Shown: in pieces, positions 42,145 to 64,000 of the stretch
Layout: each line of letters starts with the position of its first letter
Numbering within the stretch: the stretch's first letter is position 1
From: Candidatus Margulisiibacteriota bacterium
GTDB lineage: Bacteria > Margulisbacteria > Marinamargulisbacteria > JBFWNS01
Direction of reading: 5' to 3'
Assembly (NCBI GenBank): GCA_050250935.1
Contig: JBFWNS010000006.1
Location: 92,789-156,788, forward strand
DNA: 64,000 bases
Position numbers and translations under genes: made by a program
The notes under the pieces: model-generated
What the model was told of the DNA's origin: nothing
Database searches by the model: none
Seen by the model: the letters and a program-made list of their open reading frames with translations, nothing else

Positions 42145-42147
42145 CTG

Positions 42148-45753: not shown

Positions 45754-45763
45754 GGGGGTCTCC

Positions 45764-47251: not shown

Positions 47252-47258
47252 CCCCCCA

Positions 47259-49077: not shown

Positions 49078-49106
49078 AGCTGGTTTTGCCAAGCCAAGCT
49101 TGGGGT

Positions 49107-49530
49107 TCAAGTGGTGTGCGACTTCAATAGTTGTTGAACATGCATGGAAAAGCGGGTATTAAACGGTTCATGATTAAACGCGCCATCCAACAGTGCATAG
49201 GAGGGTTCGTCTCGATGGGGAGTCGGATTAAGGGTGTGCCAAAGCGCCGATTCATCGCTGAACTTTGCAATCGCTTCTTTGAGTCGCTGAACAAAAAATA
49301 ACCTTAGGGATTCATCTGCTTCGGTTTCTAAAATGGTGTCATTTAAATCGTTGAATAAGTCGAGTAGTGCTAGAGAAAATGGATTTTTTTCTCTTAAATA
49401 CCGTTCCTTTGAGAGATTGAAGCAGTGGTCTACCAGGTAGGTTTTACAGTCTTTTAGGCCTTGAAAAAGCCCTGTTGGGTTATCCCAAGTGATTCTGTAG
49501 CATTTGTTTTGATGCGGTGTTAAAAGATAG
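49107..49530 (-). pseudogene. Truncated ORF abutting the IS boundary; possibly the C-terminal remnant of the interrupted hipA/hipT-like kinase gene
   Basis: The frame is open right up to, and 4 codons into, the IS3 element end (TTG inside the IS is the only possible start). ...YRITWDNPTG... may correspond to the HipA ...SPAYDLNPT... segment after the catalytic loop. No kinase core is present. Confidence 0.3.
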
Positions 49531-49570
49531 TGTAAAGAGCCCAATCTATGTACCAGTTAAAAATGGAGAG

Positions 49571-50362
49571 CTAAAAAGTGTTTAACAAAGCCCTTGGGGG
49601 GATCCACCCAAGGGCTTTGTGAGGTCGAAAGTGGTTGTAGTCATACATCCATTCGGAGGTTATGTCTCGGACATCGTCTAAGGTTCGAAAGATATACAGG
49701 TCTAAAATGTCCTCACGGTAAGTTTTGTTGAAGCGTTCAATAAAGGCGTTTTGTGTGGGTTTGCCTGGCTTAATGTGTTCCAGTTTGACGCTGTTGGATT
49801 CAGCCCAAGATTCCAACTTAACCGACATAAACTCACGTCCGTTGTCTACTCGAATTTCATCAGGTATACCCCGTTCTTCGGCAATTTGGTTTAAGACCCG
49901 AACCACCCGTTCTGCCGGAATCGAATAGTCAATTTCAATCGCCAACACTTCTCGGTTGTGGTTATCAATGACATTAAGCGTTCTAAACTTTCGGCCCATC
50001 TCCAAACTGTCCGACATAAAATCCATGGACCAGGTCCCATTCGCTTTTTGAGGGACTTCCAACCGTTTTGGCGTTCTATTGGGAAGGCGTTTTTTTGGCT
50101 TAATCCGGTGTTTTAATTTCAGCTCTCGGTAAATCCGTCGAACCCGCTTGTGGTTCCAATGGTGCCCTTGCAATTTCAGCCAATCATAGATCTTGCCAAA
50201 GCCCCATCGTAACTTGCTCTCGGCTAGCCGACTCACCACTTCGATGACTTCCCTGTCGCCTTCTCGAATCGATTTATACCCAAATGTCCCTCGGTTCACC
50301 CATACCAATTCACACACTCGCCGTATTGAATACCCTTGCGTTTTGAGAATATGGTGTACCAA
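49571..50362 (-). CDS. IS3-family transposase OrfB (DDE integrase domain)
   Basis: ...NVIDNHNREVLAIEID... and RVDNGREFMS are rve-domain motifs. Confidence 0.85.
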   Translation of the reverse strand: MVHHILKTQGYSIRRVCELVWVNRGTFGYKSIREGDREVIEVVSRLAESKLRWGFGKIYDWLKLQGHHWNHKRVRRIYRELKLKHRIKPKKRLPNRTPKRLEVPQKANGTWSMDFMSDSLEMGRKFRTLNVIDNHNREVLAIEIDYSIPAERVVRVLNQIAEERGIPDEIRVDNGREFMSVKLESWAESNSVKLEHIKPGKPTQNAFIERFNKTYREDILDLYIFRTLDDVRDITSEWMYDYNHFRPHKALGWIPPRALLNTF

Positions 50363-50382
50363 CTCCCGTTTCGCTTCGGGCT

Positions 50383-50670
50383 TTAGAGCTTTTTTTCGAT
50401 CAGCTGCTGCAACACTTCTTTATCCATACAGACTTCGGCATACATCTTTTTAAGTCGTCGGTTTTCTTCTTCCAAACCCTTTAGCTTTTTCATCATCGGC
50501 AGGTCCATCCCGCCATATTTTGACCGCCAGCTGTAGTAGGTCGGCTGGCTGACTTTGTACTCCCGACACAACTCTGCTACTGGCATCCCGCTTTCTCCAA
50601 GTTTTAATATCTTGAAGATCTCACCTTCGCTGAATTTGCTCCGCTTCATTCGCCACTCCTTTTTAAACAT
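50383..50670 (-). CDS. IS3-family transposase OrfA (HTH)
   Basis: MKRSKFSEGEIFKILKLGESGMPVAELCREYKVSQPTYYSWRSKYGG, then a leucine zipper. It ends at the slippery GAAAAAAAG (50391-50399 on the minus strand) used for -1 frameshifting into orfB. Confidence 0.85.
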   Translation of the reverse strand: MFKKEWRMKRSKFSEGEIFKILKLGESGMPVAELCREYKVSQPTYYSWRSKYGGMDLPMMKKLKGLEEENRRLKKMYAEVCMDKEVLQQLIEKKL

Positions 50671-50724
50671 AGGCTTTCGCCTATCTTATTTTATATTTTT
50701 CTGTGGCTCAATTTTAGGGGATGC

Positions 50725-50988
50725 TTACACAAAATCATTTTGTTCAGAAAGGCCGAGCTTTTTTGTGATGGCGGTTCGTATGGCACCTTCCGGTAAAAGA
50801 TTGGCGAAGAAAAATCTGACCGAATCACCTTGATGTGGTGCTTGTTGTAATGGCAAAGATACTGAAATGGGCTGTTTTTCCTGGTTTAGCCAGGATGGGT
50901 CATACTGTAAAAACCACTGTGCCCCTTCCTTCCCCAGGTGGGCGACCAATTTTTCTTCCCAAAAAACATACAGTAGCTGTTTAGACAC
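50725..50988 (-). pseudogene. HipA N-terminal subdomain (HipS-like) fragment, truncated exactly at the IS3 right end
   Basis: ...PISVSLPLQQAPHQGDSVRFFFANLLPEGAIRTAITKKLGLSEQNDF matches the HipA_N conserved core (SLPL...FF.NLLPEG..R......s..NDF/FDLL). The stop codon is contributed by the IS terminal TTACA. Confidence 0.6.
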
Positions 50989-51238
50989 GGGTTGACTTGG
51001 ATTGAATCACAATAAACAACCCCAATCCTTTTAAAATGCTAATCACTTTAGAGAGCGAAACCGTAGGCTTTCCGTTTTCCAACTCAGACAAAAAGCGAAC
51101 CCCCACATTACATAAAGCGGCGGTTTCGGCTTGTCTTAGCCCCATTCGTTTTCTGGTCGCTCGGATGATGAGGCCGAGTTCTTTGGGGGTGTCTATAATA
51201 GTCCCGTTCGGGAAAATAGTGGTGCTTTTGGTGTTCAT
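50981..51238 (-). CDS. hipB: XRE-family HTH protein (HipB-like antitoxin)
   Basis: LGLIIRATRKRMGLRQAETAALCNVGVRFLSELENGKPTVSL is a Cro/C1-type HTH. It overlaps the downstream HipA_N fragment by 8 nt. Confidence 0.65.
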   Translation of the reverse strand: MNTKSTTIFPNGTIIDTPKELGLIIRATRKRMGLRQAETAALCNVGVRFLSELENGKPTVSLSKVISILKGLGLFIVIQSKSTRV

Positions 51239-51347
51239 GTGGTTAATTTGTTCCCGATCGGGAATAATATAGCAGACTTAATTCAAAAAGGCTACTATTA
51301 TCCCGATCGGGAATATAAAAGTCCCTTAAAAAGCCCTTAGTCAGAGA

Positions 51348-52322
51348 CTAAACCTGATCACAAAGCACAGTCAGTAGTTGGGTCGCCTTTCCGTGCCGGG
51401 CCCATCCGTACATATCCTCTCGATTGCGAGGGGGTTGGCTTAAAATAGAGAGGAGCAATTGCCCATCGTGGCCAATGCAGAATGGGGCTTTGTATTCGCC
51501 GTGTGCGCCATTGAAGGTCACGATATAAACGGCTTTAATGTCGCTGAATTTTAGGTCTATTTGGTCTGGGTCTTGAGTCAGCAAAAGCCCGTTTGGTGAA
51601 ATCTCGGCTTCTTCAAGCGAGCTGTTGCGTTGAAAGATGACCGAGGGTGTTCCCATGCTGAGGAGAAGGTCGGTTTTGGTTTTCTGGAGTTCAGTTAACA
51701 TGTGGACCAGGGGTTCTGAAACGCTGGTTAATGGGCGTACTGAGTCAGTGGCTTTACTGAGCAAGGTTAGGACGTCTTCCATGGTTTTGCCGGTGGTTAG
51801 GCGGACAATATCGGGGGCATGAGGGTGGCCTAAAACCCAAGCGCTTACGCAACCATACTCTAAGGGAACGGGTGGGGTGGTGCTGGGGCTGGTGCTTTGC
51901 AAGAGTGGGGGTGTCTCAATGGGGTCGGCAGGGGTAAGGGTTGCCACGATGGTGCCGTTCGGATTACACAGGTAAATGGTTTGGGGTGTGGTTGACGAGA
52001 CATGGGCTGTGGCACCGGGATACGACCGCAGCAAAATACCCTCAAGCCAAAATTGACCTGTTACGTCAGAAATACCTGCTTTTACGTCGGCAGGAATACT
52101 ACGCATAAATGCTTTAAGCGGTGCTTCGCTTCCCCCAATAACCGTTCCCGATGTGCGGTATGACCCACTTCCTACCTGAACTTCGCCACTAACCATGGTT
52201 CCCTCTAAGGCCTTTAAAACACCCAAAAGAGAGGTCGGTGTAGCCGAAGCATCCAAGGTTGTAAGGGATTGTCCTAATGGGGAAACAGTGAGGGGTTGGG
52301 GCGTGGCAAGGACTTTGAACAT
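51348..52322 (-). CDS. Hypothetical Ser/Thr/Pro-rich protein (324 aa), first gene of the hipB-containing transcription unit
   Basis: No recognisable motif. Low-complexity STP-rich stretches (TTPQTIY..., QSTSPSTTPPVP). Confidence 0.4.
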   Translation of the reverse strand: MFKVLATPQPLTVSPLGQSLTTLDASATPTSLLGVLKALEGTMVSGEVQVGSGSYRTSGTVIGGSEAPLKAFMRSIPADVKAGISDVTGQFWLEGILLRSYPGATAHVSSTTPQTIYLCNPNGTIVATLTPADPIETPPLLQSTSPSTTPPVPLEYGCVSAWVLGHPHAPDIVRLTTGKTMEDVLTLLSKATDSVRPLTSVSEPLVHMLTELQKTKTDLLLSMGTPSVIFQRNSSLEEAEISPNGLLLTQDPDQIDLKFSDIKAVYIVTFNGAHGEYKAPFCIGHDGQLLLSILSQPPRNREDMYGWARHGKATQLLTVLCDQV

Positions 52323-52367
52323 GTGGGTATCCTTTAATGGTTGGGGATGTAAAAATTTTGTCTAGTT

Positions 52368-52423
52368 TATCATGTTGATACTATACAAGTCATTTCTCGG
52401 GTCATTTCCCGTGTCATTCGCCC
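52368..52423. promoter_or_regulatory. Palindrome TATCATGTTGATA plus three tandem imperfect 12-bp repeats (GTCATTTCTCGG/GTCATTTCCCGT/GTCATTCGCCC) upstream of the 324-aa/hipB operon
   Basis: Read directly at 52368-52380 and 52389-52423. The repeats lie between the pirin stop and the start of the 324-aa gene (52322, minus strand). Confidence 0.4.
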
Positions 52424-53337
52424 GGCAACGGAATAAACTCCCCCAAATCTGTTGGAATCTTGGGGAATTGTTGGGCTTTCCATCGTTTTTTGGCGTCTTC
52501 AATGCGGTCTTTGTCGCTGGCGACCAGGTTCCACCAAATGTGCCGAGGCCCGTCCATGGCAGCGCCGCCCAGCAGCATAAACCGAACGTGGGTATGGGCT
52601 GTGACATCCACCGATTTTTGGGGTTTTAGGACGATCATTTTGGGTTGGTCGGGGGCGGTGGGGCGATAACCGGCCACATCCAGATCGCCGGACAAAATAT
52701 ACAAGGCCCGTTCTTCAACCTCGGCAGGAATGCAGAGTTTTGAGCCGGGTTCTAGGGTAATGTCGGCATAAAGGGTTTCGTGGGGGAAGGGGGTGGGGGC
52801 TTTTTCGCCCAGCAACTGGCCGGTAATCAGGGTAATGCGGGTGCCGGTGTCTTGTAACTGGGGTAGCGTGGCGGTGTGGGTGAAGGTGGGCGTGCAGTCT
52901 TCCAAATGTTTGGGCAGGGCTAGCCAAGATTGAATGCCAAACAGGGCGCTGTCGTGTTGGCGCAGGGGTTGGGGTGTACGTTCGGAATGGACAATGCCGT
53001 TGCCTGCCGTCATCAGGTTCATTTCACCGGGTTTAATCACCATGTTGGTGCCCAGCGAATCCTGATGCTGAACCTCGCCCTTAAACAAATAGGTCAGGGT
53101 CGATAAGCCAATGTGTGGGTGAGGCCGAACGTCCAGCCCACTGCCCGTAATAAACTCCCCAGGCCCCATTTGATCCCAAAAAATAAAGGGACCCACCATT
53201 TGCCGATCTTTGGCCGGTAAGGCACGGTGAACCTGAAAATTCCCAATATCGCCCAGGCGCGGCAAAATGACCGTTTCGACATGCTCAAATGCGGCGCTGG
53301 CTTGATCGTCGGGGGTGGGGCAGTTGAAGTAGCTCAT
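52414..53337 (-). CDS. Pirin family (bicupin) protein
   Basis: ...DVRPHPHIGLSTLTYLFKGEVQHQDSLG... is the pirin N-terminal cupin with metal ligands. 307 aa. Confidence 0.8.
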   Translation of the reverse strand: MSYFNCPTPDDQASAAFEHVETVILPRLGDIGNFQVHRALPAKDRQMVGPFIFWDQMGPGEFITGSGLDVRPHPHIGLSTLTYLFKGEVQHQDSLGTNMVIKPGEMNLMTAGNGIVHSERTPQPLRQHDSALFGIQSWLALPKHLEDCTPTFTHTATLPQLQDTGTRITLITGQLLGEKAPTPFPHETLYADITLEPGSKLCIPAEVEERALYILSGDLDVAGYRPTAPDQPKMIVLKPQKSVDVTAHTHVRFMLLGGAAMDGPRHIWWNLVASDKDRIEDAKKRWKAQQFPKIPTDLGEFIPLPGE

Positions 53338-53838
53338 GGGGTTTTTGGGGCGAGTTCTGCCAATAAACTTTCAATATTCAACGCTTTGGTGAACATGTCT
53401 AGGCTGCCGTCGGCGCGGCTGGGCCATTGGTCTTTAGGGCGGTCCCAGTAGAGTTCGACGCCGTTTTGGTCTGGGTCGTTGAGGTATAAGGCTTCGGAGA
53501 CGCCATGGTTGCTGGCACCGGTCAGCGGATAGTTTTCGGCCATGAGTCGGGCCAGTACCGTGGCCAAGTCTTTGCGGGTGGGGTACAAAATGGCGGTGTG
53601 AAACAGGCCGGGGCTGGTGACGGGGGCAGGGTTCTGGCCTTGGCTGTACCAGGTATTTAACCCGATATGGTGGGTGGTAGCCGCCAGCCGACAAAAAAGC
53701 GGCCTGAGCCCCTATTTTTAGGGTGACTTCAAAGCCCAATAAATCCCGATAAAACCCCAACGCTCGGTCCAAATCAGCTACTTTCAAATGCACATGGCCA
53801 ATACGGGTTTGGGTGGGTAGGGTGTAGGGAGTGTTCAT
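53334..53838 (-). pseudogene. VOC/glyoxalase-family (CatE-like) gene disrupted by a +1 frameshift (extra C in a CACCACCC tract)
   Basis: The N-terminal part MNTPYTLPTQTRIGHVHLKVADLDRALGFYRDLLGFEV...AGGYH runs into the wrong frame. Frame +1 continues HHIGLNTWQSQGQNPAPVTSPGLFHTAILYPTRKDLATV... to the stop at 53334. The junction is at ~53667-53682. Confidence 0.6.
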
Positions 53839-55040
53839 GAGTGTCCTCCTAATGATTTTGGATTTTTCTCCACCAAACTCCACACCCCCAATACCCCCAA
53901 CAGCGGAAGTGGCAATAAGACCAGGGTTTTCCAGCCCACGGCAAACAGTAACCATCCTGCCCCTAGGCTGGCGATGGCTTGGGTGCCGAAGACCAGCAGG
54001 TCGTTCAGACCTTGGGCTTTAAACCGTTCCGGACCGGTGAAGTCTACTGAAATTCGGGTGGAGCCGGCTAGGTATAAAAAATTCCAACCAATGCCCAATA
54101 GGACCAGGGCTATCCAATAGCTGGGCAGTTGGCGGCTTAAAAATGCGCAAAGGATGCTGGCGAAAAAAATAAAAATGCCTGCCAGTGTGAGCTTTTTGAG
54201 CCCGATTTTAGCAAGCAGGAGGCCACTGAATAGGGAGGGTAAAAACATGGCGATGATGTGGCTTTGAATAATGAAGGTGGTGTTCGGCTTCGAAAAATGA
54301 CAGAGGGTGTGCATTTGAAGTGGGGTTGCCGACATGAGCAAGGTCATGGTGGCAAAGGCGGTGATCCCGCTTAGTGCAGCCAGTAAAAACTGGGGCTGGG
54401 TTGTGATAGGTGAGGCCACTGCCAAGGGGGTTTCTCCACCGCGGCTTTGTCTTGGGGGTGGTGTGGGGGTGATGCCTAGTAAAAGCCCGCCACTGACGAT
54501 GAGCCCTAGGCCCAACAGCAGCAAGGAGCCCAGGTAATCGGTTGTGAATAAAGTCTGTCCATACAGGGTCATACCAGGACCAATGATGGCGGAAAAGAGA
54601 CTGAACATTAAAACCCAAGAGTGAACCAGGGCTTTTTCGGTGTTGGTTTGCTCGGCGGCGGTAAATCGAATCTGATTGGTAAATGCAATGCCGCCTCCCG
54701 ACACCAAATTCCCCAAACAAAACACGCTAAACTGGGTCTTGATTAACCCCACGCCCAAAAGACCAATTCCCAATAGGCTGAGCAGTAGGCCTGCCAAATG
54801 CCCTTTTTTGCGACCGATTTTGGAAAAAATCCAGGTTGAAACCGGACTGCAGGCGGCTACCCCAACAATCATGGCGGCCATGGGCAGGGTGGACAGTACC
54901 AAGGTTGGTGCCAACTCGACGCCCTTAAGCCCGCTGATTAAAAACAAAACCGGACCGGTAGAGCCTGCCAATGCTTGAACCAGGAGCAAGCATAAAAGGT
55001 TTCGGTTAAACGTTGGCAGCCAGTGCATCCTTAGAACCAA
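53835..55040 (-). CDS. MFS transporter (12 TMS)
   Basis: 401 aa and hydrophobic, with MFS motif-A-like GxxxxKIGRKKG. Its stop overlaps the VOC start (4 bp). Confidence 0.7.
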   Translation of the reverse strand: MVLRMHWLPTFNRNLLCLLLVQALAGSTGPVLFLISGLKGVELAPTLVLSTLPMAAMIVGVAACSPVSTWIFSKIGRKKGHLAGLLLSLLGIGLLGVGLIKTQFSVFCLGNLVSGGGIAFTNQIRFTAAEQTNTEKALVHSWVLMFSLFSAIIGPGMTLYGQTLFTTDYLGSLLLLGLGLIVSGGLLLGITPTPPPRQSRGGETPLAVASPITTQPQFLLAALSGITAFATMTLLMSATPLQMHTLCHFSKPNTTFIIQSHIIAMFLPSLFSGLLLAKIGLKKLTLAGIFIFFASILCAFLSRQLPSYWIALVLLGIGWNFLYLAGSTRISVDFTGPERFKAQGLNDLLVFGTQAIASLGAGWLLFAVGWKTLVLLPLPLLGVLGVWSLVEKNPKSLGGHS

Positions 55041-55669
55041 TAATCCGGGTAATGCCGGTTTTTGACAGTGTTGTTGGTGAGGTAGGCAATGGCAACCATG
55101 ATCACCGCTCCCAATAAGACCGGCGATAAAATATAGCGAAAGCCCAGCGAATAAATCCGCTCACCGCCAATAATGGCAATGAGTGCGGTTGCTCCACCGG
55201 GCGGGTGCAGGGTTTTGGTCAGGTGCATGCCTGCAATCGCACACGAAACCGCCAAAGCCGATCCCAACCAAATGGGCTGGGGCAGCGCCAAATGAATACA
55301 GACCCCACAAAGGGCCGAAATTACATGCCCACCAATGATATTTCGAGGCTGGGCCAACGGGCTTCGCGGTGCCCCATAAGCCAAAACTGCAGAGGCTCCG
55401 AATGACCCGATCATGATTAATAAAGAGGGTTCAAACAGGTGTAACAGTCCCAAAGCCGCAATCCCAATAAACGAAAACACCCAAGAAAACAAAATCTCAT
55501 GCCAGTTGGCAAAGGGAATGAGGGGCCAGTTGTGTTTCTTTTTGCGGTCCTGCCGGTTTTTTTCCAAGAGTGTTACAAGTTCAGCAACGTCATCCACCGT
55601 GATATCCACAAACCCATCCATTTTGCTGATGGCGGTTTCAATTTCTGTTTTGGTGTAAGGGGTTGGCAT
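55031..55669 (-). CDS. HPP family membrane protein
   Basis: ...MHLTKTLHPPGGATALIAIIGG... is the diagnostic HPPGGAT motif. It has a soluble N-terminal extension. Confidence 0.7.
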   Translation of the reverse strand: MPTPYTKTEIETAISKMDGFVDITVDDVAELVTLLEKNRQDRKKKHNWPLIPFANWHEILFSWVFSFIGIAALGLLHLFEPSLLIMIGSFGASAVLAYGAPRSPLAQPRNIIGGHVISALCGVCIHLALPQPIWLGSALAVSCAIAGMHLTKTLHPPGGATALIAIIGGERIYSLGFRYILSPVLLGAVIMVAIAYLTNNTVKNRHYPDYWF

Positions 55670-55779
55670 GGGGTTTAAAGTTTAATACTGGGGTTCTGGA
55701 TAGGTCAAAGGTTGGAAAGTAAGGTATTCTTTCAGTTTTCTTTCGGTGGTGGTTCTGGATAGTGATCCATGGTGTTTCA

Positions 55780-55986
55780 CTAGTGGTCATAATTTATAAG
55801 GGGGTTTTGGTCGCGGTGTGTTGGGTTAAATCGATGGTAATATTTTTTGGGTTGGGCTAGGGCATAGGTTGTGGGCTCGCTTGGGGATGTGGCGGCTGTG
55901 CACCCCATGAGGGGTGTCAGGAAAAGACCTATCAAAAAAAAGAGCAGGGTTCTGTTGAGAGGGTTGATTTTCATGGGTTTTAACAA
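55780..55986 (-). CDS. Small putative lipoprotein (lipobox L-M-G-C)
   Basis: LLFFLIGLFLTPLMGCTAATSP is a signal peptide with a lipobox. Confidence 0.35.
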   Translation of the reverse strand: MLKPMKINPLNRTLLFFLIGLFLTPLMGCTAATSPSEPTTYALAQPKKYYHRFNPTHRDQNPLINYDH

Positions 55987-55998
55987 TTAAATTGTGCT

Positions 55999-56397
55999 TT
56001 ATTTTAGAGAATGTAGACCGAACATATTGCCTTCGGAATCAAAAACAATCGAGATAAACCCATATTGGCCAATCGAAAATTTGGTTTTTTCGACTTTTCC
56101 GCCGTTGGCTTGGATTCGAGATTCTTCCACCACACAATCGTCGCAAGAAAAATAAACCAGAACGCTGTTTTTTCCTGCAGACATGCCAGGCATTTTAACC
56201 AGGGCACCACCGGCGCCGTACAGGTTCATGTCGGCTGGGAAGGACCACATTTCGAAGCCAGGAATACCGGCATCGGATTCTCCGATTCGGTCGAAGGACA
56301 CTTTGAAGACCCCTTCGTAGAAGCGTTTGGCTCTGGCCATATCCTCTACATAAATTTCGAACCAACCCACTGGATTTTTCGCAACTGTATTTGACAT
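55999..56397 (-). CDS. VOC family protein (glyoxalase/bleomycin-resistance fold)
   Basis: 132 aa: ...GWFEIYVEDMARAKRFYEGVF... with paired beta-alpha-beta-beta-beta modules. Confidence 0.65.
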   Translation of the reverse strand: MSNTVAKNPVGWFEIYVEDMARAKRFYEGVFKVSFDRIGESDAGIPGFEMWSFPADMNLYGAGGALVKMPGMSAGKNSVLVYFSCDDCVVEESRIQANGGKVEKTKFSIGQYGFISIVFDSEGNMFGLHSLK

Positions 56398-56459
56398 ATC
56401 AAACTCCTTTCAAATTTTTCATCAGTTTATCGGTTTGTTGTGACAACCGTGTGTCATAG

Positions 56460-57392: not shown

Positions 57393-57494
57393 GGGGGTAT
57401 GGTAGCAAATAAAATAAAATCGGGGATCTAAAGCGAGCCTTGCCATGGATTTTGCAACCAGAACCAACCGGATTGTTCAAGAACCCACCATCGG

Positions 57495-57914
57495 GTGTAT
57501 TCTTGGGCCATGTCTTGCTACTGTGGTCATCCCGACCCCTATTTAGAGTGTTGCGGCCAATATGTGGTGTTTGGCCAAAAACCAGAAACGGCCGAAAAAC
57601 TCATGCGGTCTCGGTATTCGGCTTATGCCACCGGGGCGGTTCCCTATTTGATTCAAACCACCCACCCTGACTTTCGAAATTCCACTTTAGGGGTTTCGAT
57701 TTCCACATGGATAGCCCAAGTGAGTGCTTGGCGGGGACTAACCATTGTGTCGGTCCAAAAAGGCGGGCCAAAAGACGAGATCGGATGGGTGAACTTCCAA
57801 GCCACCTTTGTCCAAGATGGGCAAGAACAGCGTTTGCAAGAGCGGTCTCGGTTTAGCCGGTTTTTGGGGGAATGGGTTTATGAGGATCGGGAGGAGAAGT
57901 GGGCAAGTTCTTAA
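57495..57914 (+). CDS. YchJ family (UPF0225) protein with a SEC-C-like metal-binding motif
   Basis: CYCGHPDPYLECCGQY; an internal YSAYATGAVPYLIQTTHP motif; a second ...WVYEDREE region. Confidence 0.6.
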   Translation: MYSWAMSCYCGHPDPYLECCGQYVVFGQKPETAEKLMRSRYSAYATGAVPYLIQTTHPDFRNSTLGVSISTWIAQVSAWRGLTIVSVQKGGPKDEIGWVNFQATFVQDGQEQRLQERSRFSRFLGEWVYEDREEKWASS

Positions 57915-57949
57915 CGCTTGGATCGTTTTAACAACACTAAGGAGTTCAA

Positions 57950-58441
57950 ATGCAAAAAATCGTCACGTTTTTATGGTTTAACCATCAGGCCAAAGAGGCT
58001 GTGGAGTTGTATGTATCCCTGTTTGAAAATGCCAAAATAACCAACACCTCTTATTTTACAGACTCGGTAGCCAAAATGGCTGGAAAGAAGCCAGGCGAGC
58101 TTTCTACCATCGATTTTGAACTGAATGGCCAGGCGTTTACTGCCTTGAATGGTGGTCCCATGTTTCGCTTTAACGAGGCCATCTCTATCCAAGTCCACTG
58201 CAAAACCCAAGCCGAGATCGACCGGCTGTGGGAGGCCCTGTCCAAAGGCGGCGAAATCAGTGCTTGCGGCTGGCTGAAGGATGCCTATGGTCTCTCCTGG
58301 CAGATAGTTCCCGAAAGCCTAGACCCCATGCTCCGAGACCCCGACCCTGCCAAAGCAGACCGGGTGAGCGCTGCCATGTTGGGGATGGCGGGCAAATTGG
58401 ATTTGGGGGTGTTGGAGAGGGCTTATTGGGGGGAAGCCTAG
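57950..58441 (+). CDS. PhnB-like VOC-superfamily protein (3-demethylubiquinone-9 3-methyltransferase domain)
   Basis: MQKIVTFLWFNHQAKEAVELYVSLFENAKI...IDFELNGQAFTALNGGP...CGWLKDAYGLSWQIVP. Confidence 0.65.
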   Translation: MQKIVTFLWFNHQAKEAVELYVSLFENAKITNTSYFTDSVAKMAGKKPGELSTIDFELNGQAFTALNGGPMFRFNEAISIQVHCKTQAEIDRLWEALSKGGEISACGWLKDAYGLSWQIVPESLDPMLRDPDPAKADRVSAAMLGMAGKLDLGVLERAYWGEA

Positions 58442-59217
58442 TCCGCAGGTTTTTCTGCTTGAATCCGAAGGCGTTTATAATCGGCGTACCAGGCCCCATT
58501 TTGGTACAATGCTGGTCGGGTTTTGGTCTCAATAAAGCGGATCATTTCATTCCGAATGTTGGCTGGAATGCCTTCAAAAAAGGGTGATGCAAACATATTC
58601 AGCCAATGTCGAAGCCCCAAATCGCCGTCATCTAATACGGTTGGGCGATCAAAATAGGCAACCTTTCTGACCGTAAAGTGAGCTTGTTCCAGCAGGCTGG
58701 TGTAGTCTGCAACGGTTGGGAAATACCAGGGATTTTTTTCTTGATTCTCTTTATAGCCAAACTGTTCCAAAGCCTGATTGATTCCATTTACAATTTGTCC
58801 AATATTACGATGTCCTCCAAACTCTATAACCAACCGTCCACCGGGTTTTAATGCTCGAAACATGGAATCGGCTGCTGCCCGGGCCTCTTTGACCCAATGC
58901 AAAGCAGCATTCGAGAAAATGGCATCAAATTCATCTTGATAACCCAGTTCCCGTACGTCTCTGATTTGAAAGTTGAGCTCTGGAAATTTTTGTTGTGCTG
59001 CAGCAATCATGAAATCGGACTGATCAATTCCCAGAACCCGAGCGCCTAGGTCTGCTATTTCTTTGGTCAAATCCCCAGTCCCGCATCCGACATCACAAAT
59101 CTTTTCATTTTTGACAGGGTTCAATTCCTGTACCAACGATTTGCCATAGGCGGTATTAAAGCCGTGATGTTGGTCATAAAGCTGGGCATCCCAGTGGTTT
59201 GTTGGGTGGGTGGTCAT
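58438..59217 (-). CDS. Class I SAM-dependent methyltransferase, trans-aconitate 2-methyltransferase (Tam)-like
   Basis: WDAQLYDQHHGF, motif I VCDVGCGTGDLT, ...IFSNAALHWV. Confidence 0.7.
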   Translation of the reverse strand: MTTHPTNHWDAQLYDQHHGFNTAYGKSLVQELNPVKNEKICDVGCGTGDLTKEIADLGARVLGIDQSDFMIAAAQQKFPELNFQIRDVRELGYQDEFDAIFSNAALHWVKEARAAADSMFRALKPGGRLVIEFGGHRNIGQIVNGINQALEQFGYKENQEKNPWYFPTVADYTSLLEQAHFTVRKVAYFDRPTVLDDGDLGLRHWLNMFASPFFEGIPANIRNEMIRFIETKTRPALYQNGAWYADYKRLRIQAEKPAD

Positions 59218-59260
59218 GGTTTTTAATCCTCAACGAGATAGTCTCTATTGCAGACAGATT

Positions 59261-59539
59261 TTAAGCAGCTTTTGCAATTTCCAATGCTTCGTACTCTGGA
59301 AATACAATAATAGCCGGATGAACATTAAAGGCTTTTGCCAAAAGCTCGGCTCTTTTTTTACCAATATCCACTTTATTGTGCTCTAAAAGACTAATATTGC
59401 TAGAACTAATACCACATCGCAAGGCCAACTCTTCTTGCGTCCATCCCATCAATTCCCTCAACATACGAATAACTTCTCCTGTCGTAAGCGTCGCGTGCGA
59501 TTGTGCATTCATAAATTCGTTTTCTTTTAAGTATTTCAT
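59261..59539 (-). CDS. XRE-family HTH antitoxin (HigA-like)
   Basis: GEVIRMLRELMGWTQEELALRCGISSSNISLLEHNK is a Cro/C1 HTH. It lies immediately downstream of a RelE/ParE-family toxin gene. Low GC. Confidence 0.6.
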   Translation of the reverse strand: MKYLKENEFMNAQSHATLTTGEVIRMLRELMGWTQEELALRCGISSSNISLLEHNKVDIGKKRAELLAKAFNVHPAIIVFPEYEALEIAKAA

Positions 59540-59557
59540 TAGCGACTCCTTCTCTTT

Positions 59558-59830
59558 TTAATAGTTATGGGGTGTAATTTCCAAAACATAAATTGTAATG
59601 ATGTCTTGATTGATTGAATAAATCACTCGATATTGAAGATTAAGTCGAGATGATCTTTGTCCTCTTCTATCCCCAACGAGCTTTTCATCATGAAATCCAG
59701 GAAATTGTTTTAATTTTTCAGGGCCGTGCCTAAATACAATGTCTTTCCAAAGCTCATATTTTTTCAATACAGCAATTGGGATTTTTTTACAAATCTTCTC
59801 GAGGTTCCTATGTTCTTTGATATGCCACAT
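59558..59830 (-). CDS. RelE/ParE-superfamily toxin (HigB-like; toxin-first gene order)
   Basis: ...GDRRGQRSSRLNLQYRVIYSINQDIITIYVLEITPHNY has the RelE/ParE C-terminal pattern. 90 aa. Preceded by an operator-like IR. Confidence 0.55.
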   Translation of the reverse strand: MWHIKEHRNLEKICKKIPIAVLKKYELWKDIVFRHGPEKLKQFPGFHDEKLVGDRRGQRSSRLNLQYRVIYSINQDIITIYVLEITPHNY

Positions 59831-59835
59831 ATATT

Positions 59836-59855
59836 AAAAATAATAACTTATTAAA
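59836..59855. promoter_or_regulatory. Inverted repeat ACTTATT-N6-AATAAGT upstream of the toxin gene (candidate operator)
   Basis: Read directly. Located 6-25 bp upstream of the higB-like start in an AT-rich region. Confidence 0.35.
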
Positions 59856-59963
59856 TATAATAAGTACACAAGAGAAACCCAGGAAGATATTCTAGGAATG
59901 TTGAGCAGTATGGCTTCCTAGTTTAAGAGGCTATAGAACAGGCATTATTCTTTCGCTATTCTT

Positions 59964-60608
59964 TCAATTTTCTTTCATCTTTTTTGACCAGCAAAAGGAT
60001 ATACTGCCCCCAATTAATGCCCACATCATATCCTTTTGGGTATCCCATACATCTCCTTGAGCTCCCAAAAAATCGTCAGCTTTAGTACCGGTCCATAGTG
60101 CAACTTGCCATTCAAAAAGCTCATAAGCTGCACTCAAGGCGAGTGCCATACATAGGGATAAAAAAATCACCCATGTTCTTTGTTTAACGCCTACTTTACG
60201 GACCAAGATATCTTGAGCCAATAAGGCCGGAACAAAACCTTGAAAAAAATGTCCAACCTTGTCGTAATTATTGCGGGTCCATCCCATTATCGGCTTTAAT
60301 TGATCAAACAAGGGAACGCGAGCGTAGGTATAATGTCCGCCAATCATAAGAACGCAAGCATGTATTAGCAGTACCCAATACAAATAGCGAGGCAGAGGAT
60401 AAGATTTGTATGTCCAAAATAAAAGAGGTAATCCGATAAAGGTAGGCAGGACTTCCAAAAACCATGTGAAGTGATCGTAAGCACCTATGTAAGACCAGAT
60501 TAGTGTGAAGACATATCCCAATAGTAATAACGTGGCTTCTCGTTTTGACATAGCAGGAGTATAGCTCAGCTTAACACTCATGTCTTTGACCCTAGTTAAC
60601 GACTCCAC
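59964..60608 (-). CDS. YjdF-family (DUF2238) inner-membrane protein
   Basis: Multi-TM with the ...GGHYTYARVPLFD...NYDKVGHFFQGFVPA... pattern of the YjdF family. The start is uncertain (several in-frame Met). Confidence 0.5.
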   Translation of the reverse strand: MESLTRVKDMSVKLSYTPAMSKREATLLLLGYVFTLIWSYIGAYDHFTWFLEVLPTFIGLPLLFWTYKSYPLPRYLYWVLLIHACVLMIGGHYTYARVPLFDQLKPIMGWTRNNYDKVGHFFQGFVPALLAQDILVRKVGVKQRTWVIFLSLCMALALSAAYELFEWQVALWTGTKADDFLGAQGDVWDTQKDMMWALIGGSISFCWSKKMKEN

Positions 60609-60616
60609 CCCATTAA

Positions 60617-60650
60617 CCCCCTCACCACAACGCAGTGAGGGGATTTTTTG
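60617..60650 (+). terminator. Rho-independent terminator-like hairpin (CCCCTCAC-N10-GTGAGGGG + ATTTTTTG), plus-strand oriented, between two minus-strand genes
   Basis: An 8-bp GC-rich stem followed by a T6 run on the plus strand. A second small hairpin GGGCTTCGGAGCCC lies at 60654-60667. Confidence 0.4.
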
Positions 60651-60666
60651 CTCGGGCTTCGGAGCC

Positions 60667-63600
60667 CTATAGTTTCCAATCGATCGTCAAGCGGATGGGG
60701 ACGTTTTTCAGATCGGGGGTGCCTAGGGAATAGGCTTCGAGTCGGGCACTGAGATTTTGGGAAATGGCATAGATGGTACCTACCCGTAGCAGTAGGGTGC
60801 TGTCTGAAGTGGACGAATCTGAAAATGTCTGTGCTGTGTTCGCAAGTTTATAGGAAGCGGATTGTCCAGAGAGTAGCGAATGTCCACTGACGCCGACTTC
60901 AGCAAAGGTACGGAGGTTGTCCGTATCAAAAACAAGGCCAGCACTGGTGTTCCAGATTCCAGAAACCATCGTGCGGGAATCCCAACGGAACTGGTCGCCT
61001 TCGGAATAAGCGTCTTGGTATTCGTAAACGGTGGAGACGTCGCCTGCAAGGCGTAAACTCAACCCATTTCCAAGCGCGATGGGACGTTTCAAAGATACGC
61101 CCAGCAAGGCTTCCGAGCTTTGGGTGTTCCCATGAATGGTTTGGCTTCCTGATTCTGAACCAAAATTGGTCAAAATGGTTCTAGAGGTATCCAGCCATCT
61201 TTTTCCAACGCCAATGCGCCATGACATATCGAGATCCCATAGTTTGGCAGGCCTTGATTGATAGCCAAGACGTAGACCCTTATCGGTTATCTTTTGAGCG
61301 TCATCGTTTTCAATGGCGAGTTGTGATTGCTGAACATCCAGCCAGAAAGAACCGGAAGGATCTAGTGTGAAGCCGGTGTTGATCCCTTGCGCTGCGAGGC
61401 TATATCTCGCAGTTGATTGTGCATTACGGATGCTGTTTTCTAGATAGGGGCTTACCCAAAAAGAAGTGGGGTTTTCAGGTAAGACACGCAGCAGGCTGTT
61501 GGTCCGCGCTGCGATCCAATCGTTGGCGATATCCAGTGCATCTGCGTTGGCCGCGAGTATCAGATTATTGTTTTGAGCAAACGCGCGGGTAGGGCTAGCG
61601 TTGTCGGTTACCGTCCATGTTCCTTGGGTTGCGAAGATATAAGAGCGTTTGCCAAGGTCAATCGTGAGGTCTGCGGTGTCATGGGTAAACAGGGTTCCGG
61701 TAATCAAGGTCCCACTTTTTAAGGCCAGTTTATTGGTAGAGCCCGATGCAAAATAGACCGCGTAGGCTTGGGATGCATCAGAAGCTTTGGCAGAAACGCG
61801 ACCGTTAATCGTTACAGAATTGGTTTCTCCAGAAACATAAAGGGCTGTTGCGGTACCGTTAGTAGCCGTAGCCCGTACATCCCCATTCACGTCGATGGTG
61901 ATCTGATTCTGGTCACCACTTTGATGGATCGCAAAGGCATTGCCATTGCTGGAATCGGTATAGACTTTACCAGAGACAGAGACGAGGTTATCCTGCCCCC
62001 CTTCTTGCTTGATGCCATAGCCAAGGGTTGTGCTGCCAGATGCGGAAACCATCATCTGACCGGTAACCGTGACGGTATTGCTTCCCCCACTGCCACTGGT
62101 TCCGCTAGAACCTGCTACGCCATCGGCACCCGCCACACCCGCAGAGCCGGTCAAACCACTGGCACCATCCACACCGGCCGCGCCATTAGCGCCAGCAACA
62201 CCATTGTCGCCAGCACCTGAATTGTCAGACAAACCGTCTGTACCCGAGAATCCATTCGTGCCGGAGGTGCCATTTTCAGTGTCTCCGATACCGCCAACTC
62301 CACCCATACCTTCGCTCCCACCCGTTCCGCCAGTGCTGCCAATACCGCCAGCACCGCCATTCCCGCCGTCACCGCCATTGCCGCCAAAATCGCCATCGCC
62401 GCCAGCGCCTCCAAAACCACCATTACCGCCAGCGCCTCCAAAACCACCACTACCGCCAGCACCAGCAGCGCCACCTGTTCCGCCAACGCCGCCAGATCCG
62501 CCAAGGCCGCCAATACCGCCAGCGCCGCTAACACCGCCAGAACCAGCTGCGCCGCCAACACCGGCCGCACCGCCCGTGACAACTTGTTTTATTCCATAGG
62601 CTGTTGCTTCCCCGGAAGTCGAGGTTGCTGAAGCAGAGATATGCCCAGAAAGCGTGACAACGTTGTTTCCACTGCCCCCTGTGCCACCATTACCGCCCAC
62701 ACCGCCAGTGCCGCCAATCCCTCCAGTACCACCAACCCCGCCTGCGCCGCCAGCACCGCCATCGCCGCCAGCACCACCGGCACCGCCAGCGCCACCAACA
62801 CCAGCAGCACCGCCAGCACCGCCATTGCCACCATCACCACCATTGCCGCCATTGGTGCCTGCAAATCCAGCGCCGCCAGCGCCGCCAGAACCGCCAGCGC
62901 CGCCGTTCCCGCCATTGCCGCCGTCGCCGCCAGCACCCCCCGTACTGCCAGCGCCACCATCGCCGCCAACGCCGCCGGCACCGCCAGCACCACCGGCGCC
63001 GCCAGCACCACCAGCACCGCCCGAGCCGCCAGCACCGCCGGTAGCCGATTGTTGTATCCCATAAGCAATAGCCGTATTGGCGCTGGTAGCCGTGGCTGTC
63101 ACCGTGTGAGAGAGGGTAAGGATGTTACTCCCCGTGCCGCCGCTGGCACCGTTTGTCCCATTTTGGCCATTGGCCCCAGTACCGCCAGTACCGCCACTGG
63201 CCCCGCTTCCGCCAAAAGCCCCACTTTCGCCACTATCCCCAGTTCCTCCAACGCCGCCATTGGTTCCGTCTCCTCCCGCTGTGCCATCACCTCCATCATT
63301 GCCATCGGGTGACACACCGGTTCCGTCTTGCCCAGGCATGCCTGCAGCGCCAGCAGTGCCATGGTCCCCAGCGACGCCACTAGACCCATTGGCCCCAGCC
63401 GTAGTCGCATCTGCCCCAGCGACGCCACTGGTTCCATTGGCCCCAGCCGTTCCCGTAGCTCCAGTTGTTCCAGTAGCCCCAGCTGTTCCGCTTTCACCAA
63501 CAGCAGTTTGTCCTATTCCGATGGCCGTTTCAGCGGTGCTGGACTGGTCTTCAGTGGAAATATACGTGTTGGATGTTGGGGTATCCGTTCCATAGATTGT

Positions 63601-63735
63601 AACCGGTGTTAATAACAAGAGGATCAAACACAGTTTGATATAAACAAATTTATCAAAATAGTTAATCGAGACAGTGGCTTCTGTACCCTTTGGTTGGGCA
63701 CTAGCCATCCTAGATTTGGTTGATTTTGTAGACAT
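60667..63735 (-). CDS. Giant (1022 aa) glycine-rich autotransporter-like surface protein: signal peptide, three Gly-Gly-X repeat modules, C-terminal beta-barrel
   Basis: N-terminus has a TM/signal (FVYIKLCLILLLLTPVTIYG). Residues ~60-520 are (GGX)n tracts such as GGAGGSGGAGGAGG..., each followed by a conserved ~25-aa segment (..TLSGHISASATSTSGEATAYGIKQ / ..LSHTVTATATSANTAIAYGIQQ / ..VTGQMMVSASGSTTLGYGIKQ). The C-terminal ~280 aa have alternating aromatic beta-strands ending ...RLTIDWKL. Confidence 0.65.
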   Translation of the reverse strand: MSTKSTKSRMASAQPKGTEATVSINYFDKFVYIKLCLILLLLTPVTIYGTDTPTSNTYISTEDQSSTAETAIGIGQTAVGESGTAGATGTTGATGTAGANGTSGVAGADATTAGANGSSGVAGDHGTAGAAGMPGQDGTGVSPDGNDGGDGTAGGDGTNGGVGGTGDSGESGAFGGSGASGGTGGTGANGQNGTNGASGGTGSNILTLSHTVTATATSANTAIAYGIQQSATGGAGGSGGAGGAGGAGGAGGAGGVGGDGGAGSTGGAGGDGGNGGNGGAGGSGGAGGAGFAGTNGGNGGDGGNGGAGGAAGVGGAGGAGGAGGDGGAGGAGGVGGTGGIGGTGGVGGNGGTGGSGNNVVTLSGHISASATSTSGEATAYGIKQVVTGGAAGVGGAAGSGGVSGAGGIGGLGGSGGVGGTGGAAGAGGSGGFGGAGGNGGFGGAGGDGDFGGNGGDGGNGGAGGIGSTGGTGGSEGMGGVGGIGDTENGTSGTNGFSGTDGLSDNSGAGDNGVAGANGAAGVDGASGLTGSAGVAGADGVAGSSGTSGSGGSNTVTVTGQMMVSASGSTTLGYGIKQEGGQDNLVSVSGKVYTDSSNGNAFAIHQSGDQNQITIDVNGDVRATATNGTATALYVSGETNSVTINGRVSAKASDASQAYAVYFASGSTNKLALKSGTLITGTLFTHDTADLTIDLGKRSYIFATQGTWTVTDNASPTRAFAQNNNLILAANADALDIANDWIAARTNSLLRVLPENPTSFWVSPYLENSIRNAQSTARYSLAAQGINTGFTLDPSGSFWLDVQQSQLAIENDDAQKITDKGLRLGYQSRPAKLWDLDMSWRIGVGKRWLDTSRTILTNFGSESGSQTIHGNTQSSEALLGVSLKRPIALGNGLSLRLAGDVSTVYEYQDAYSEGDQFRWDSRTMVSGIWNTSAGLVFDTDNLRTFAEVGVSGHSLLSGQSASYKLANTAQTFSDSSTSDSTLLLRVGTIYAISQNLSARLEAYSLGTPDLKNVPIRLTIDWKL

Positions 63736-63873
63736 AAGTCTCCCCCGTTTTTATAAATTTGGTTATATTTTCTTGAATGAAAAGCTCAGCGAGTTAATGC
63801 CCTATAAAAAAATTTGTTAAACGTATTTTTCAGGGATTCTAATTTAACGATTCTAGAGCCCTAAGAATGCTTT

Positions 63874-64000
63874 TGTAAAGAGCCCAATCTATGTACCAGT
63901 TAAAAATAGAGAACTAAAAAGTGTTTAACAAAGCCCTTGGGGGGATCCCCCCAAGGGCTTTGTGCGGTCGAAAATGGTTGTAGTCATACATCCATTCGGA
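63874..64000 (-). mobile_element. Second, diverged copy of the same IS3-family element (left end plus 3' end of orfB), continuing beyond the window
   Basis: 63874-64000 aligns to 49531-49657 with ~5 mismatches in 127 bp. Same orientation as copy 1. The orfB C-terminus would end at ~63914. Confidence 0.8.

What the first reader, a model, noticed from the sequence alone, without database searches (positions are those of the whole stretch)
49531..64000. Two diverged direct copies of one IS3-family element bracket a ~13 kb accessory segment
Nucleotides 49531-49657 (IS left end plus orfB 3' end) recur at 63874-64000 in the same orientation with ~96% identity (5 mismatches in 127 bp). The intervening segment (50730-63873) is gene-dense with accessory functions. 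It holds hipB and hipA remnants, a pirin, a frameshifted VOC gene, MFS and HPP membrane proteins, a lipoprotein, a second VOC, a WYL regulator, YchJ, PhnB-like and Tam methyltransferase genes, a low-GC HigBA-like pair, YjdF, and the giant Gly-rich autotransporter. The arrangement resembles a composite-transposon-like islet, or an IS-mediated rearrangement hotspot. The sequence divergence between copies suggests the insertions are not recent.
Basis: seen in the sequence. Interest (0 to 1): 0.55.

Follow-up and report, generated by a model that had tools for sequence, protein, structure and literature searches.

The report
Ordinary IS3 element; second copy is contig-end stub
This is an ordinary jumping-gene (IS3-family insertion sequence) present in at least two slightly different versions in an uncultured Margulisiibacteriota genome; the "second copy" in the window is just the 127-base overlap where the assembled contig stops, and nothing shows the 13 kb between the copies moves as a unit.

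Summary
The repeat is real. Positions 49531-49657 recur at 63874-64000 in direct orientation with 5 mismatches in 127 nt, starting exactly at the element's terminal TGTAAAG.

Copy 1 (49531-50729, 1,199 bp, minus strand) is a complete IS3-family element: orfA, an A AAA AAG slippery site, orfB with DD(35)E, and imperfect TG..CA inverted repeats. It has no target-site duplication. It cuts hipA after about 86 codons, and an orphan ORF lies on its other side.

The source is an NCBI Margulisiibacteriota MAG. Every window protein checked maps to a 156,788-bp contig. The only transposase matching the stub's C-terminus (P0121, 359 aa, 96% identical to copy 1's) maps to a different, 127,568-bp contig.

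The window therefore most likely ends at a contig end, and 127 nt is a typical k=127 assembler overlap. A full second variant exists, but its link to the stub, and its right flank, rest on the assembly.

The 13.1-kb segment has host-like composition (GC 0.500 versus 0.497), apart from a 2.2-kb block at 41% GC. Its proteins are seen nowhere else.

Two independent IS insertions, with a later rearrangement or assembly join at copy 1, fit best. A composite transposon is unproven. Interest is low.

The parts
49531..50729 (-). IS3-family insertion sequence, copy 1, complete (1,199 bp)
   Evidence: Pfam finds HTH_Tnp_1, HTH_21, rve and rve_3. NCBIfam IS3 family scores 268.5 bits against a cut-off of 160. 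Both termini align base-for-base with the termini of a 70%-identical relative, L083. The NCBI protein is P0001 = MGE4170533.
50695..50729 (.). Terminal inverted repeat next to orfA (left IR in transposase orientation), ending ..CTTACA on the + strand
   Evidence: Local alignment of the two ends gives TGTAA..CCC..AA..TG..CCA..AAAAAT, about 35 nt and imperfect.
49531..49565 (.). Terminal inverted repeat next to the orfB 3' end, starting TGTAAAGAG on the + strand
   Evidence: The Logan contig L082 stops 30 nt (k-1) inside it, at 49560.
50383..50649 (-). orfA (88 aa from MKRSK; the mechanical ORF starts at 50670)
   Evidence: HTH_Tnp_1 at E 1.3e-17. P0001 begins MKRSKFSEGE.
50389..50395 (-). A AAA AAG -1 slippery heptamer at the orfA/orfB overlap
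   Evidence: Read directly from the sequence. The NCBI product P0001 is the 359-aa frameshift fusion ..LIGKKALKPEAK...
49571..50362 (-). orfB (DDE integrase-like catalytic domain)
   Evidence: rve and rve_3. The motifs WSMDFMSD, VDNG and, after 35 residues, IERFN give DD(35)E. All three are conserved in P0121.
49585..49620 (.). 36-nt palindrome inside the last 13 codons of orfB (repeated at 63928-63963)
   Evidence: inverted repeat I1. The RNA folds at -28.3 and -34.0 kcal/mol, z -4.6 and -5.2. Relative L083 keeps it through 3 compensatory pair changes.
50730..50988 (-). hipA 5' fragment (about 86 codons), cut by the IS end; its stop codon TAA (50725-50727) lies inside the IS
   Evidence: Pfam Couple_hipA matches positions 1-82 of 99 only, with no HipA_C. 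NCBI names it a HipA N-terminal domain-containing protein, MGE4170534.
50981..51238 (-). hipB-like HTH antitoxin, intact
   Evidence: HTH_3; MGE4170535.
49107..49530 (-). Orphan ORF abutting the other IS end (AB7F28_07420); its annotated TTG start at 49544 is inside the IS
   Evidence: No Pfam hit. The only match among 5.8 billion proteins is itself. It is not the missing part of hipA.
50730..63873 (.). 13,144-bp segment between the two IS left-end-oriented copies
   Evidence: Gene content. GC is 0.500 against 0.497 for 1-49530. Tetranucleotide and codon-usage measures are mostly within the host range. The Logan contig L001 is 100% identical over 50701-62781.
58438..60608 (.). Low-GC sub-block (Tam methyltransferase, HTH antitoxin plus weak HigB-like ORF, DUF2238)
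   Evidence: GC 0.407. GC3 is 0.40-0.43 against a host mean of 0.541, sd 0.050.
63874..64000 (-). 127-nt stub of the second IS variant (terminal IR plus the last 28 codons and stop of orfB), cut by the window end and probably by the contig end
   Evidence: Its translation ..HKALGGIPPRALLNTF equals the C-terminus of P0121 = MGE4170549, which is recorded on a different, 127,568-bp contig.

Best explanation
An ordinary and apparently still functional IS3-family insertion sequence is present in at least two variants, about 4% diverged, in one Margulisiibacteriota MAG. It is 1,199 bp long, has TG..CA ends and an orfA/orfB -1 frameshift, and belongs to a clade that makes 4-bp target duplications.

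Shown:
- Copy 1 is complete and sits against a hipA gene truncated at about codon 86.
- It has an unrelated orphan ORF on its other side and no 4-bp duplication.
- 14.3 kb further on, 138 bp upstream of the Gly-rich protein gene, the left end of a second variant begins in the same orientation.
- A full-length intact transposase with exactly that variant's C-terminus exists in the same assembly, but on another contig.

Inferred:
- The window ends where the 156,788-bp contig ends. The 127 nt is the k=127 overlap that a de Bruijn assembler leaves when a contig runs into a repeat vertex.
- The two copies are independent insertions of two variants into native chromosomal DNA by the family's copy-out-paste-in route.
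- Copy 1's missing duplication and the missing hipA 3' part come from a later IS-mediated event, such as a deletion by recombination with another copy, or from the assembler joining the flanks of different copies.

As direct repeats, the two copies could delete or excise the 13.1-kb segment by homologous recombination. Nothing indicates that the block has transposed as a composite element.
For: Repeat and boundaries.

IS3 anatomy:
- The frameshift-fused 359-aa products and the conserved DD(35)E come.
- Both termini are confirmed by alignment to relative L083.

TSD length in the clade:
- 6 of 45 related elements with TGTA..TACA ends have identical 4-nt flanks, against 0.18 expected by chance.
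- L083 is flanked by GCC(G).
- Copy 1's flanks are ATAG and CAAA.

hipA truncation: only Couple_hipA positions 1-82 of 99 are present.

Contig end:
- P0121 is recorded on a 127,568-bp contig.
- P0001 and 16 other window proteins, MGE4170531 to 546, are recorded on a 156,788-bp contig.
- The stub is exactly 127 nt and starts at the first IS base.

Independent k=31 Logan contigs from SRR27751816 stop 30 nt into the left end and 29 nt into the right end of copy 1. This implies at least two left ends and at least two right ends in the sample.

The shared base C at 50730 fits a 4-bp duplication CTTT for copy 2 (flank 63870-63873). It does not fit the ATAG expected at that end if the composite had inserted as a unit. 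This is a weak, one-base inference.

Host-like composition of the segment.

The 14 segment proteins that could be found in the protein collection are singletons at 90% identity, seen only in this MAG or sample.
Against: - No DNA beyond 64000 could be obtained. Copy 2's interior, right end and right flank were never seen, and its duplication is untested.
- One accession (MGE4170548) between the Gly-rich protein (presumed 547) and P0121 (549) is unaccounted for. P0121's element may therefore not sit at the very start of the next contig and could be a third locus.
- That the contig ends at 64000 is inferred from contig-length records and the k-mer coincidence, not read from the record.
- A k=127 contig should stop at the first all-IS 127-mer only if that 127-mer has another context. 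Copy 1 differs from it at 5 positions, so that context is unidentified.
- Segment genes have slightly higher codon-usage distances than the host mean (0.42-0.69 versus 0.435, sd 0.086). The 58.4-60.6 kb block is clearly lower in GC. Part of the segment may therefore be acquired DNA.
Confidence: 0.65

Rival explanations
1. The block is a composite transposon or translocatable unit. Two copies of the IS captured the 13.1-kb segment elsewhere, with the hipA truncation made at the original site. The whole IS-segment-IS unit then transposed into the orphan gene at 49530.
For: - The copies are direct and belong to one IS. Both variants have intact transposases with intact catalytic residues.
- Copy 1's inner end truncates hipA, while its outer side is an unrelated ORF whose start is missing. 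This is what a unit insertion predicts.
- The cargo is accessory in type: toxin-antitoxin pairs, VOC proteins, a transporter and a regulator.
Against: - The outer duplication cannot be tested.
- The Logan contig end implies that another right-end context starts with C. That matches copy 2's own flank CTTT, not ATAG (one base only).
- The copies are 4% diverged.
- Segment composition equals the host's.
- No second occurrence of any segment protein at 90% identity or more is on record.
- 39 of 45 related elements in metagenome contigs also lack a TSD, so a missing TSD is not diagnostic.
Confidence: 0.1
2. The arrangement is partly an assembly artefact. The flanks joined across copy 1, or the assumed continuation of the stub into P0121's element, belong to different IS loci. 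There may be a third copy, strain heterogeneity, or a shared stretch of at least 127 nt in the orfA region.
For: - The contig stops exactly one k-mer (127 nt) into the second variant.
- P0121 is on another contig, and one accession is unaccounted for.
- The independent k=31 assembly breaks at both ends of copy 1 and so does not confirm the join across it.
- P0001 and P0121 are identical over their first 81 residues, so a shared nucleotide stretch longer than k is possible there.
- Copy 1 has no TSD, and most metagenome-assembled relatives also lack one.
Against: - In the only region where both variants can be compared, they differ about every 25 nt, so no 127-mer is shared and an assembler can thread each copy.
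- Only two transposases of this IS exist in the 90% cluster.
- Both left ends with their distinct flanks are present in one contig.
Confidence: 0.2
3. The second copy next to the Gly-rich protein gene is only a solo terminal fragment, a remnant of 127 nt or more, and not a full element.
For: Only 127 nt are visible. The contig break leaves the continuation open.
Against: - The stub is intact from the first IS base through the stop codon and the last 28 codons. Two of its three coding differences from copy 1 are synonymous.
- A full-length protein with the identical C-terminus exists in the assembly.
- At least two right ends exist in the sample.
Confidence: 0.05

Closest known systems
IS3 family insertion sequences (paradigms IS911, IS2, IS3, IS150, IS407)
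   Same: - The length is about 1.2 kb, with terminal inverted repeats beginning TG and ending CA.
- orfA (HTH) and orfB (rve, DD(35)E) lie in frames 0 and -1, with an A AAA AAG slippery site.
- The fused OrfAB transposase is 359 aa.
- The clade makes a 4-bp target duplication. From my own knowledge of ISfinder, a 4-bp duplication with a length of about 1.2 kb is typical of the IS407 group. This was not tested against reference IS407 sequences.
   Different: - The element has no close named relative. The best named hit in plasmids is ISEcl10-like at 51% aa identity.
- The best hits anywhere are 75% and 70% in JGI metagenomes.
- The host is a Margulisiibacteriota MAG.
- It carries a strong 16-bp-stem hairpin embedded in the last codons of orfB.
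Composite transposons with direct IS copies (e.g. Tn9 with IS1) and IS26-type translocatable units
   Same: Two same-orientation copies of one IS lie on either side of a block of accessory-type genes.
   Different: - No outer target duplication has been shown, and there is no second location.
- The copies are 4% diverged, and the cargo has host-like composition.
- Only one end of the second copy was seen.
- IS3-family elements move through a circular copy of a single IS, so composite movement needs the two outer ends to be paired. That has not been demonstrated here.
Contig-end repeat overlaps in de Bruijn-graph assemblies (SPAdes or MEGAHIT at k=127)
   Same: - The contig ends exactly k nucleotides into a repeated element.
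- The k=31 Logan contigs of the same sample end k-1 nt into the same element.
   Different: The assembler and its k value for this MAG are not known to me. The other context of the 127-mer was not found.

Membership tests
IS3 family | Transposase with an rve-type DDE domain that passes a curated IS3 model | tested here: met
   NF033516 scores 268.5 bits (P0001) and 270.8 bits (P0121) against a cut-off of 160. Pfam finds rve, rve_3 and HTH_21. DD(35)E was read from the sequence.
IS3 family | Two overlapping ORFs (orfA in frame 0, orfB in frame -1) with an A6G-type slippery site producing OrfAB | tested here: met
   orfA is 50383-50670, orfB is 49571-50362, and A AAA AAG is at 50389-50395. NCBI annotates the fused 359-aa product. 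Frameshifting itself was not measured.
IS3 family | Imperfect terminal inverted repeats ending 5'-TG..CA-3', with a length of 1.2-1.55 kb | tested here: met
   The ends are TGTAAAGAG.. and ..GCTTACA, and the element is 1,199 bp. The termini are conserved in L083 and in 45 relatives.
IS3 family | Short (3-5 bp) target-site duplication | tested here: inconclusive
   Copy 1's flanks are ATAG and CAAA, so it has none. Copy 2's right flank is not available. Relatives show 4-bp duplications in 6 of 45 cases, against 0.18 expected by chance.
Composite transposon | Two complete IS copies bracketing the cargo | tested here: inconclusive
   Copy 1 is complete. Only 127 nt of copy 2 are in the window. 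The full variant (P0121) is recorded on another contig.
Composite transposon | One target duplication flanking the whole unit, at the outer ends | not testable with these tools
   The sequence right of copy 2 is unavailable. The exact-protein look-ups returned no contig. The metagenome scan's best match was 70%.
Composite transposon | The same unit seen at another site or in another genome | tested here: not met
   The 14 segment proteins found in the collection are singleton clusters, present only in this MAG or sample. The contexts of the closest DUF6530 homologue share no synteny.
Genomic islet of foreign origin | Composition distinct from the flanking chromosome | tested here: not met
   GC is 0.500 against 0.497. 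Tetranucleotide distance for 50-58 kb is within the range of the rest of the window. Only 58438-60608 (GC 0.407) and the Gly-repeat region deviate.

The most novel reading that the evidence does not exclude
The two variants and the 13.1-kb block could form a working composite transposon, or an excisable translocatable unit, in Margulisiibacteriota. The conserved 16-bp hairpin built into the last 13 codons of orfB could be a functional regulatory or terminator element of this IS3 subclade. It is maintained by compensatory changes that alter the protein sequence.
Probability: 0.1. Interest if true: 0.3.

Novelty: new member of a known kind. Interest (0 to 1): 0.1.

Why it matters
It matters little biologically. 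This is an unnamed IS3-family element in a poorly sampled phylum, with the usual consequences: a disrupted hipA toxin gene, and direct repeats that could delete 13 kb.

The practical lesson is methodological. A repeat that stops exactly at the window end and is exactly 127 nt long is the signature of an assembler's contig-end overlap. "Composite transposon" readings from MAG contigs should not be trusted without long-read or read-pair support. In this clade, 39 of 45 metagenome-assembled relatives also lack a target duplication.

Tried and rejected
1. Extending past 64000.
- Exact-protein look-ups for the Gly-rich protein, both orfA versions, P0001 and P0121 returned no contig.
- The Tam and DUF6530 look-ups returned only Logan contigs that break at the IS.
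- The metagenome-contig scan with P0121 found nothing closer than 70%.

2. Testing whether the ORF left of copy 1 is the rest of hipA or a truncated known gene. It has no Pfam hit and no homologue anywhere. It was rejected as hipA, and its truncation remains unproven.

3. Synteny with relatives.
- All window proteins looked up are singletons at 90% identity.
- DUF6530 homologues (78% or less) lie in unrelated neighbourhoods.
- P0003's contig has no DNA held.

4. Foreign composition of the whole segment was rejected.

5. Rfam families in the IS, such as frameshift elements. Only sub-threshold look-alikes of a terminator stem were found. The simple terminator scan does not call the palindrome, because no T-run follows it directly.

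6. A paper search for the SRA run, to learn the assembler and its k value, gave 0 hits.

7. Accession bookkeeping to prove P0121 is the next gene after the Gly-rich protein. It left one accession (548) unexplained.
Full report
**Observation.** The repeat is exactly as described. Positions 49531-49657 and 63874-64000 are direct copies with 5 mismatches in 127 nt (family D3, 96.06%, E 4e-55). The mismatches are at repeat positions 35, 40, 76, 92 and 101. The sequences just upstream of the two copies are unrelated, and homology starts at TGTAAAGAG. The repeat ends only because the window ends. No other piece of the element is present in the window.

**Anatomy of copy 1.** The element spans 49531-50729 (1,199 bp), with its genes on the minus strand.
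- orfA (50383-50670, or 50649 from MKRSK) carries HTH_Tnp_1. orfB (49571-50362) carries HTH_21, rve and rve_3.
- The two ORFs overlap at an A AAA AAG heptamer at 50389-50395.
- NCBI annotates the -1 frameshift fusion as a 359-aa IS3 family transposase (P0001 = MGE4170533). It scores 268.5 bits on NCBIfam NF033516, cut-off 160.
- The catalytic residues D (WSMDFMSD), D (VDNG) and E (IERFN, 35 residues later) are present in both variants.
- The ends are imperfect inverted repeats of about 35 nt, beginning TGTAA and ending TTACA.
- Both termini align to the last base with those of the nearest DNA relative I could fetch, L083 (JGI, 70% aa identity).

**Target duplications.** Among 45 related metagenomic elements with TGTA..TACA ends and both flanks available, 6 have identical 4-nt flanks, against 0.18 expected by chance. 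L083 is flanked by GCC(G). This clade therefore makes 4-bp duplications. Copy 1 has ATAG on one side and CAAA on the other, so it has none. The same survey is a calibration: 39 of 45 assembled relatives also lack a duplication. Absence in a metagenome-assembled contig may mean rearrangement, or an assembly join between the flanks of different copies.

**Flanks of copy 1.** On the right, a hipBA operon reads towards the IS. hipB (50981-51238) is intact. hipA stops after about 86 codons, and its stop codon lies inside the IS end. Only positions 1-82 of the 99-position Couple_hipA domain are present, with no HipA_C. On the left, the 140 codons abutting the IS (49107-49530) have no Pfam hit and no homologue among 5.8 billion proteins other than the ORF's own NCBI record, AB7F28_07420. 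That record's annotated TTG start lies inside the IS. The rest of hipA is therefore not across the IS.

**Where the window comes from, and what the second copy is.** The 17 window proteins that could be looked up by exact sequence carry accessions MGE4170531 to 546, in window order. All are recorded on one 156,788-bp contig of a Candidatus Margulisiibacteriota MAG.
- The 90%-identity cluster of the transposase has exactly two members. The second, P0121 = MGE4170549, is also 359 aa and 96% identical (344/359) to P0001.
- P0121's C-terminus...HKALGGIPPRALLNTF, equals the translation of 63917-64000. Copy 1 encodes GWI at that point.
- P0121 is recorded on a 127,568-bp contig, not the 156,788-bp one.

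The stub is exactly 127 nt and begins at the first base of the IS. Together with the contig record, this makes it very likely (my estimate is about 85-90%) that the window ends at the contig end. The 127 nt would then be the overlap a k=127 de Bruijn assembler leaves at a repeat vertex.

An independent k=31 assembly of the same sample behaves the same way. Logan contig L082 equals window 38595-49560 and stops 30 nt into the left end. L001 equals 62781-50701 and stops 29 nt into the right end. The sample therefore holds at least two left ends and at least two right ends of this IS.

L001 stops one base earlier than expected. This means another right-end context also starts with C. That agrees with a 4-bp duplication CTTT for copy 2 (its left flank is 63870-63873). 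It disagrees with the ATAG expected if the whole unit had inserted at 49530. This is a one-base inference with a 1-in-4 chance of coincidence, and it assumes only two copies.

**Open points.** DUF2238 is accession 546, so the Gly-rich protein should be 547. One accession, 548, then precedes P0121. It may be a short partial transposase at the contig end or the first gene of the next contig. In the latter case P0121's element could be a third locus. Also, a k=127 contig should stop at the first all-IS 127-mer only if that 127-mer has a second context. Copy 1 differs from it at five positions, so that context is unidentified. It could be a third copy, strain heterogeneity, or an IS circle junction. 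No tool gave DNA beyond 64000.

**The 13.1-kb segment.** Gene content is largely as listed. The Gly-rich 1022-aa protein, however, has no Pfam autotransporter domain. The HigB-like ORF is a weak match and is not annotated as a protein by NCBI.
- GC is 0.500 against 0.497 for the rest of the window.
- Tetranucleotide distance for 50-58 kb lies within the range seen elsewhere.
- Codon-usage distances are 0.42-0.69, against 0.435 (sd 0.086) outside.
- Only the 58438-60608 block (GC 0.407, GC3 0.40-0.43) and the Gly-repeat region stand out.
- All segment proteins that were found are singletons at 90% identity, seen only in this MAG or sample.
- The nearest DUF6530 homologues lie in unrelated neighbourhoods, so a synteny test against relatives is not possible with current data.

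**Interpretation.** The simplest reading is two independent insertions of two variants of an active IS3-family element into native DNA. One is in hipA, and the other is 138 bp upstream of the Gly-rich protein gene. A later IS-mediated event at copy 1, such as recombination with another copy deleting the hipA 3' part, or an assembler join, would account for the missing duplication.

Both transposases are intact. In the 84 comparable coding bases there are two synonymous changes and one non-synonymous change. This fits divergence as functional elements rather than decay in place.

A composite transposon remains possible at about 10%, but it has no positive evidence. A substantial share of the uncertainty, about 20%, is that part of the arrangement is an assembly artefact.

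**Comparison with known elements.** The element passes every testable defining feature of the IS3 family. Its 4-bp duplications and 1.2-kb size resemble the IS407 group, a comparison from my own knowledge of ISfinder that was not tested against references. The closest named relative found is ISEcl10-like at 51% aa identity, and the closest of any kind is 75%. It is a new member of a known kind. Interest is low.

Noticed in passing
window 49585-49620 and 63928-63963; L083 about 1110-1150: A 36-nt palindrome (16-bp stem) lies inside the last 13 codons of orfB. Its RNA fold is -28 to -34 kcal/mol, z -4.6 to -5.2. The 70%-identical relative L083 keeps the stem at the same codons through 3 compensatory base-pair changes plus a palindromic loop change (GATC to TATA), even though these alter amino acids (KA..A to SS..E). 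More distant relatives have shorter stems there, or a different hairpin (TGGAAAACTC..GAGTTTCC) after the stop. Possible roles are a transposase-mRNA terminator or stabiliser, or a DNA-level signal. There was no Rfam family, and the simple terminator scan did not call it.
   Followed up: partly
window 60667-63735 (-): The 'giant Gly-rich autotransporter' has no Pfam autotransporter beta-domain. The whole protein gives only a weak Collagen hit (E 0.007), and the C-terminal 344 aa give nothing at E up to 5. It contains long 9-nt-period GGx repeats, and the k=31 assembly breaks inside them.
   Followed up: partly
window 48595-49077 (+): The DUF6530 protein (160 aa) is 70-78% identical to well over 100 proteins from many phyla (Elusimicrobia, Spirochaetia, Marinimicrobia, Krumholzibacteria, Ignavibacteria, Desulfobacterales). 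There are 6,306 hits at E<=1e-10. This is unusually strong conservation for a small protein of unknown function. In the nearest homologue it sits beside a ParE/RHH pair.
   Followed up: partly
window 59558-59830 (-) and 58438-60608: The HigB-like ORF upstream of the HTH antitoxin is not annotated as a protein in the NCBI record (accessions 545 and 546 are consecutive around it) or in Logan. It matches HigB-like_toxin only at E 0.011. It lies in a 2.2-kb block of 40.7% GC, the only clearly atypical non-repetitive part of the segment.
   Followed up: partly
window 53334-53955 (-): The VOC/glyoxalase gene is split by a frameshift. The independent Logan assembly of the same sample is 100% identical across it. 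The frameshift is therefore not an error peculiar to the MAG assembly, although both assemblies presumably come from the same reads.
   Followed up: partly
window 49531-49544 / NCBI AB7F28_07420: The NCBI-annotated start codon (TTG at 49544) of the orphan 145-aa hypothetical protein lies inside the IS terminal repeat. The annotated protein is an IS-flank fusion, and the native gene, if real, has lost its 5' end.
   Followed up: yes
NCBI accessions MGE4170547-549 (beyond window 63735): One protein accession (548) between the presumed Gly-rich protein record and P0121 could not be accounted for by any ORF in 63736-64000. It bears on whether P0121's element is the continuation of the stub or a third locus.
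   Followed up: partly
L083-L162 (metagenome relatives): Only 6 of 45 related IS3-type elements in metagenome contigs keep a 4-bp target duplication. Most assembled copies have mismatched flanks. This may mean frequent chimeric joins across multi-copy IS elements in short-read assemblies, or frequent IS-mediated rearrangement.
   Followed up: partly
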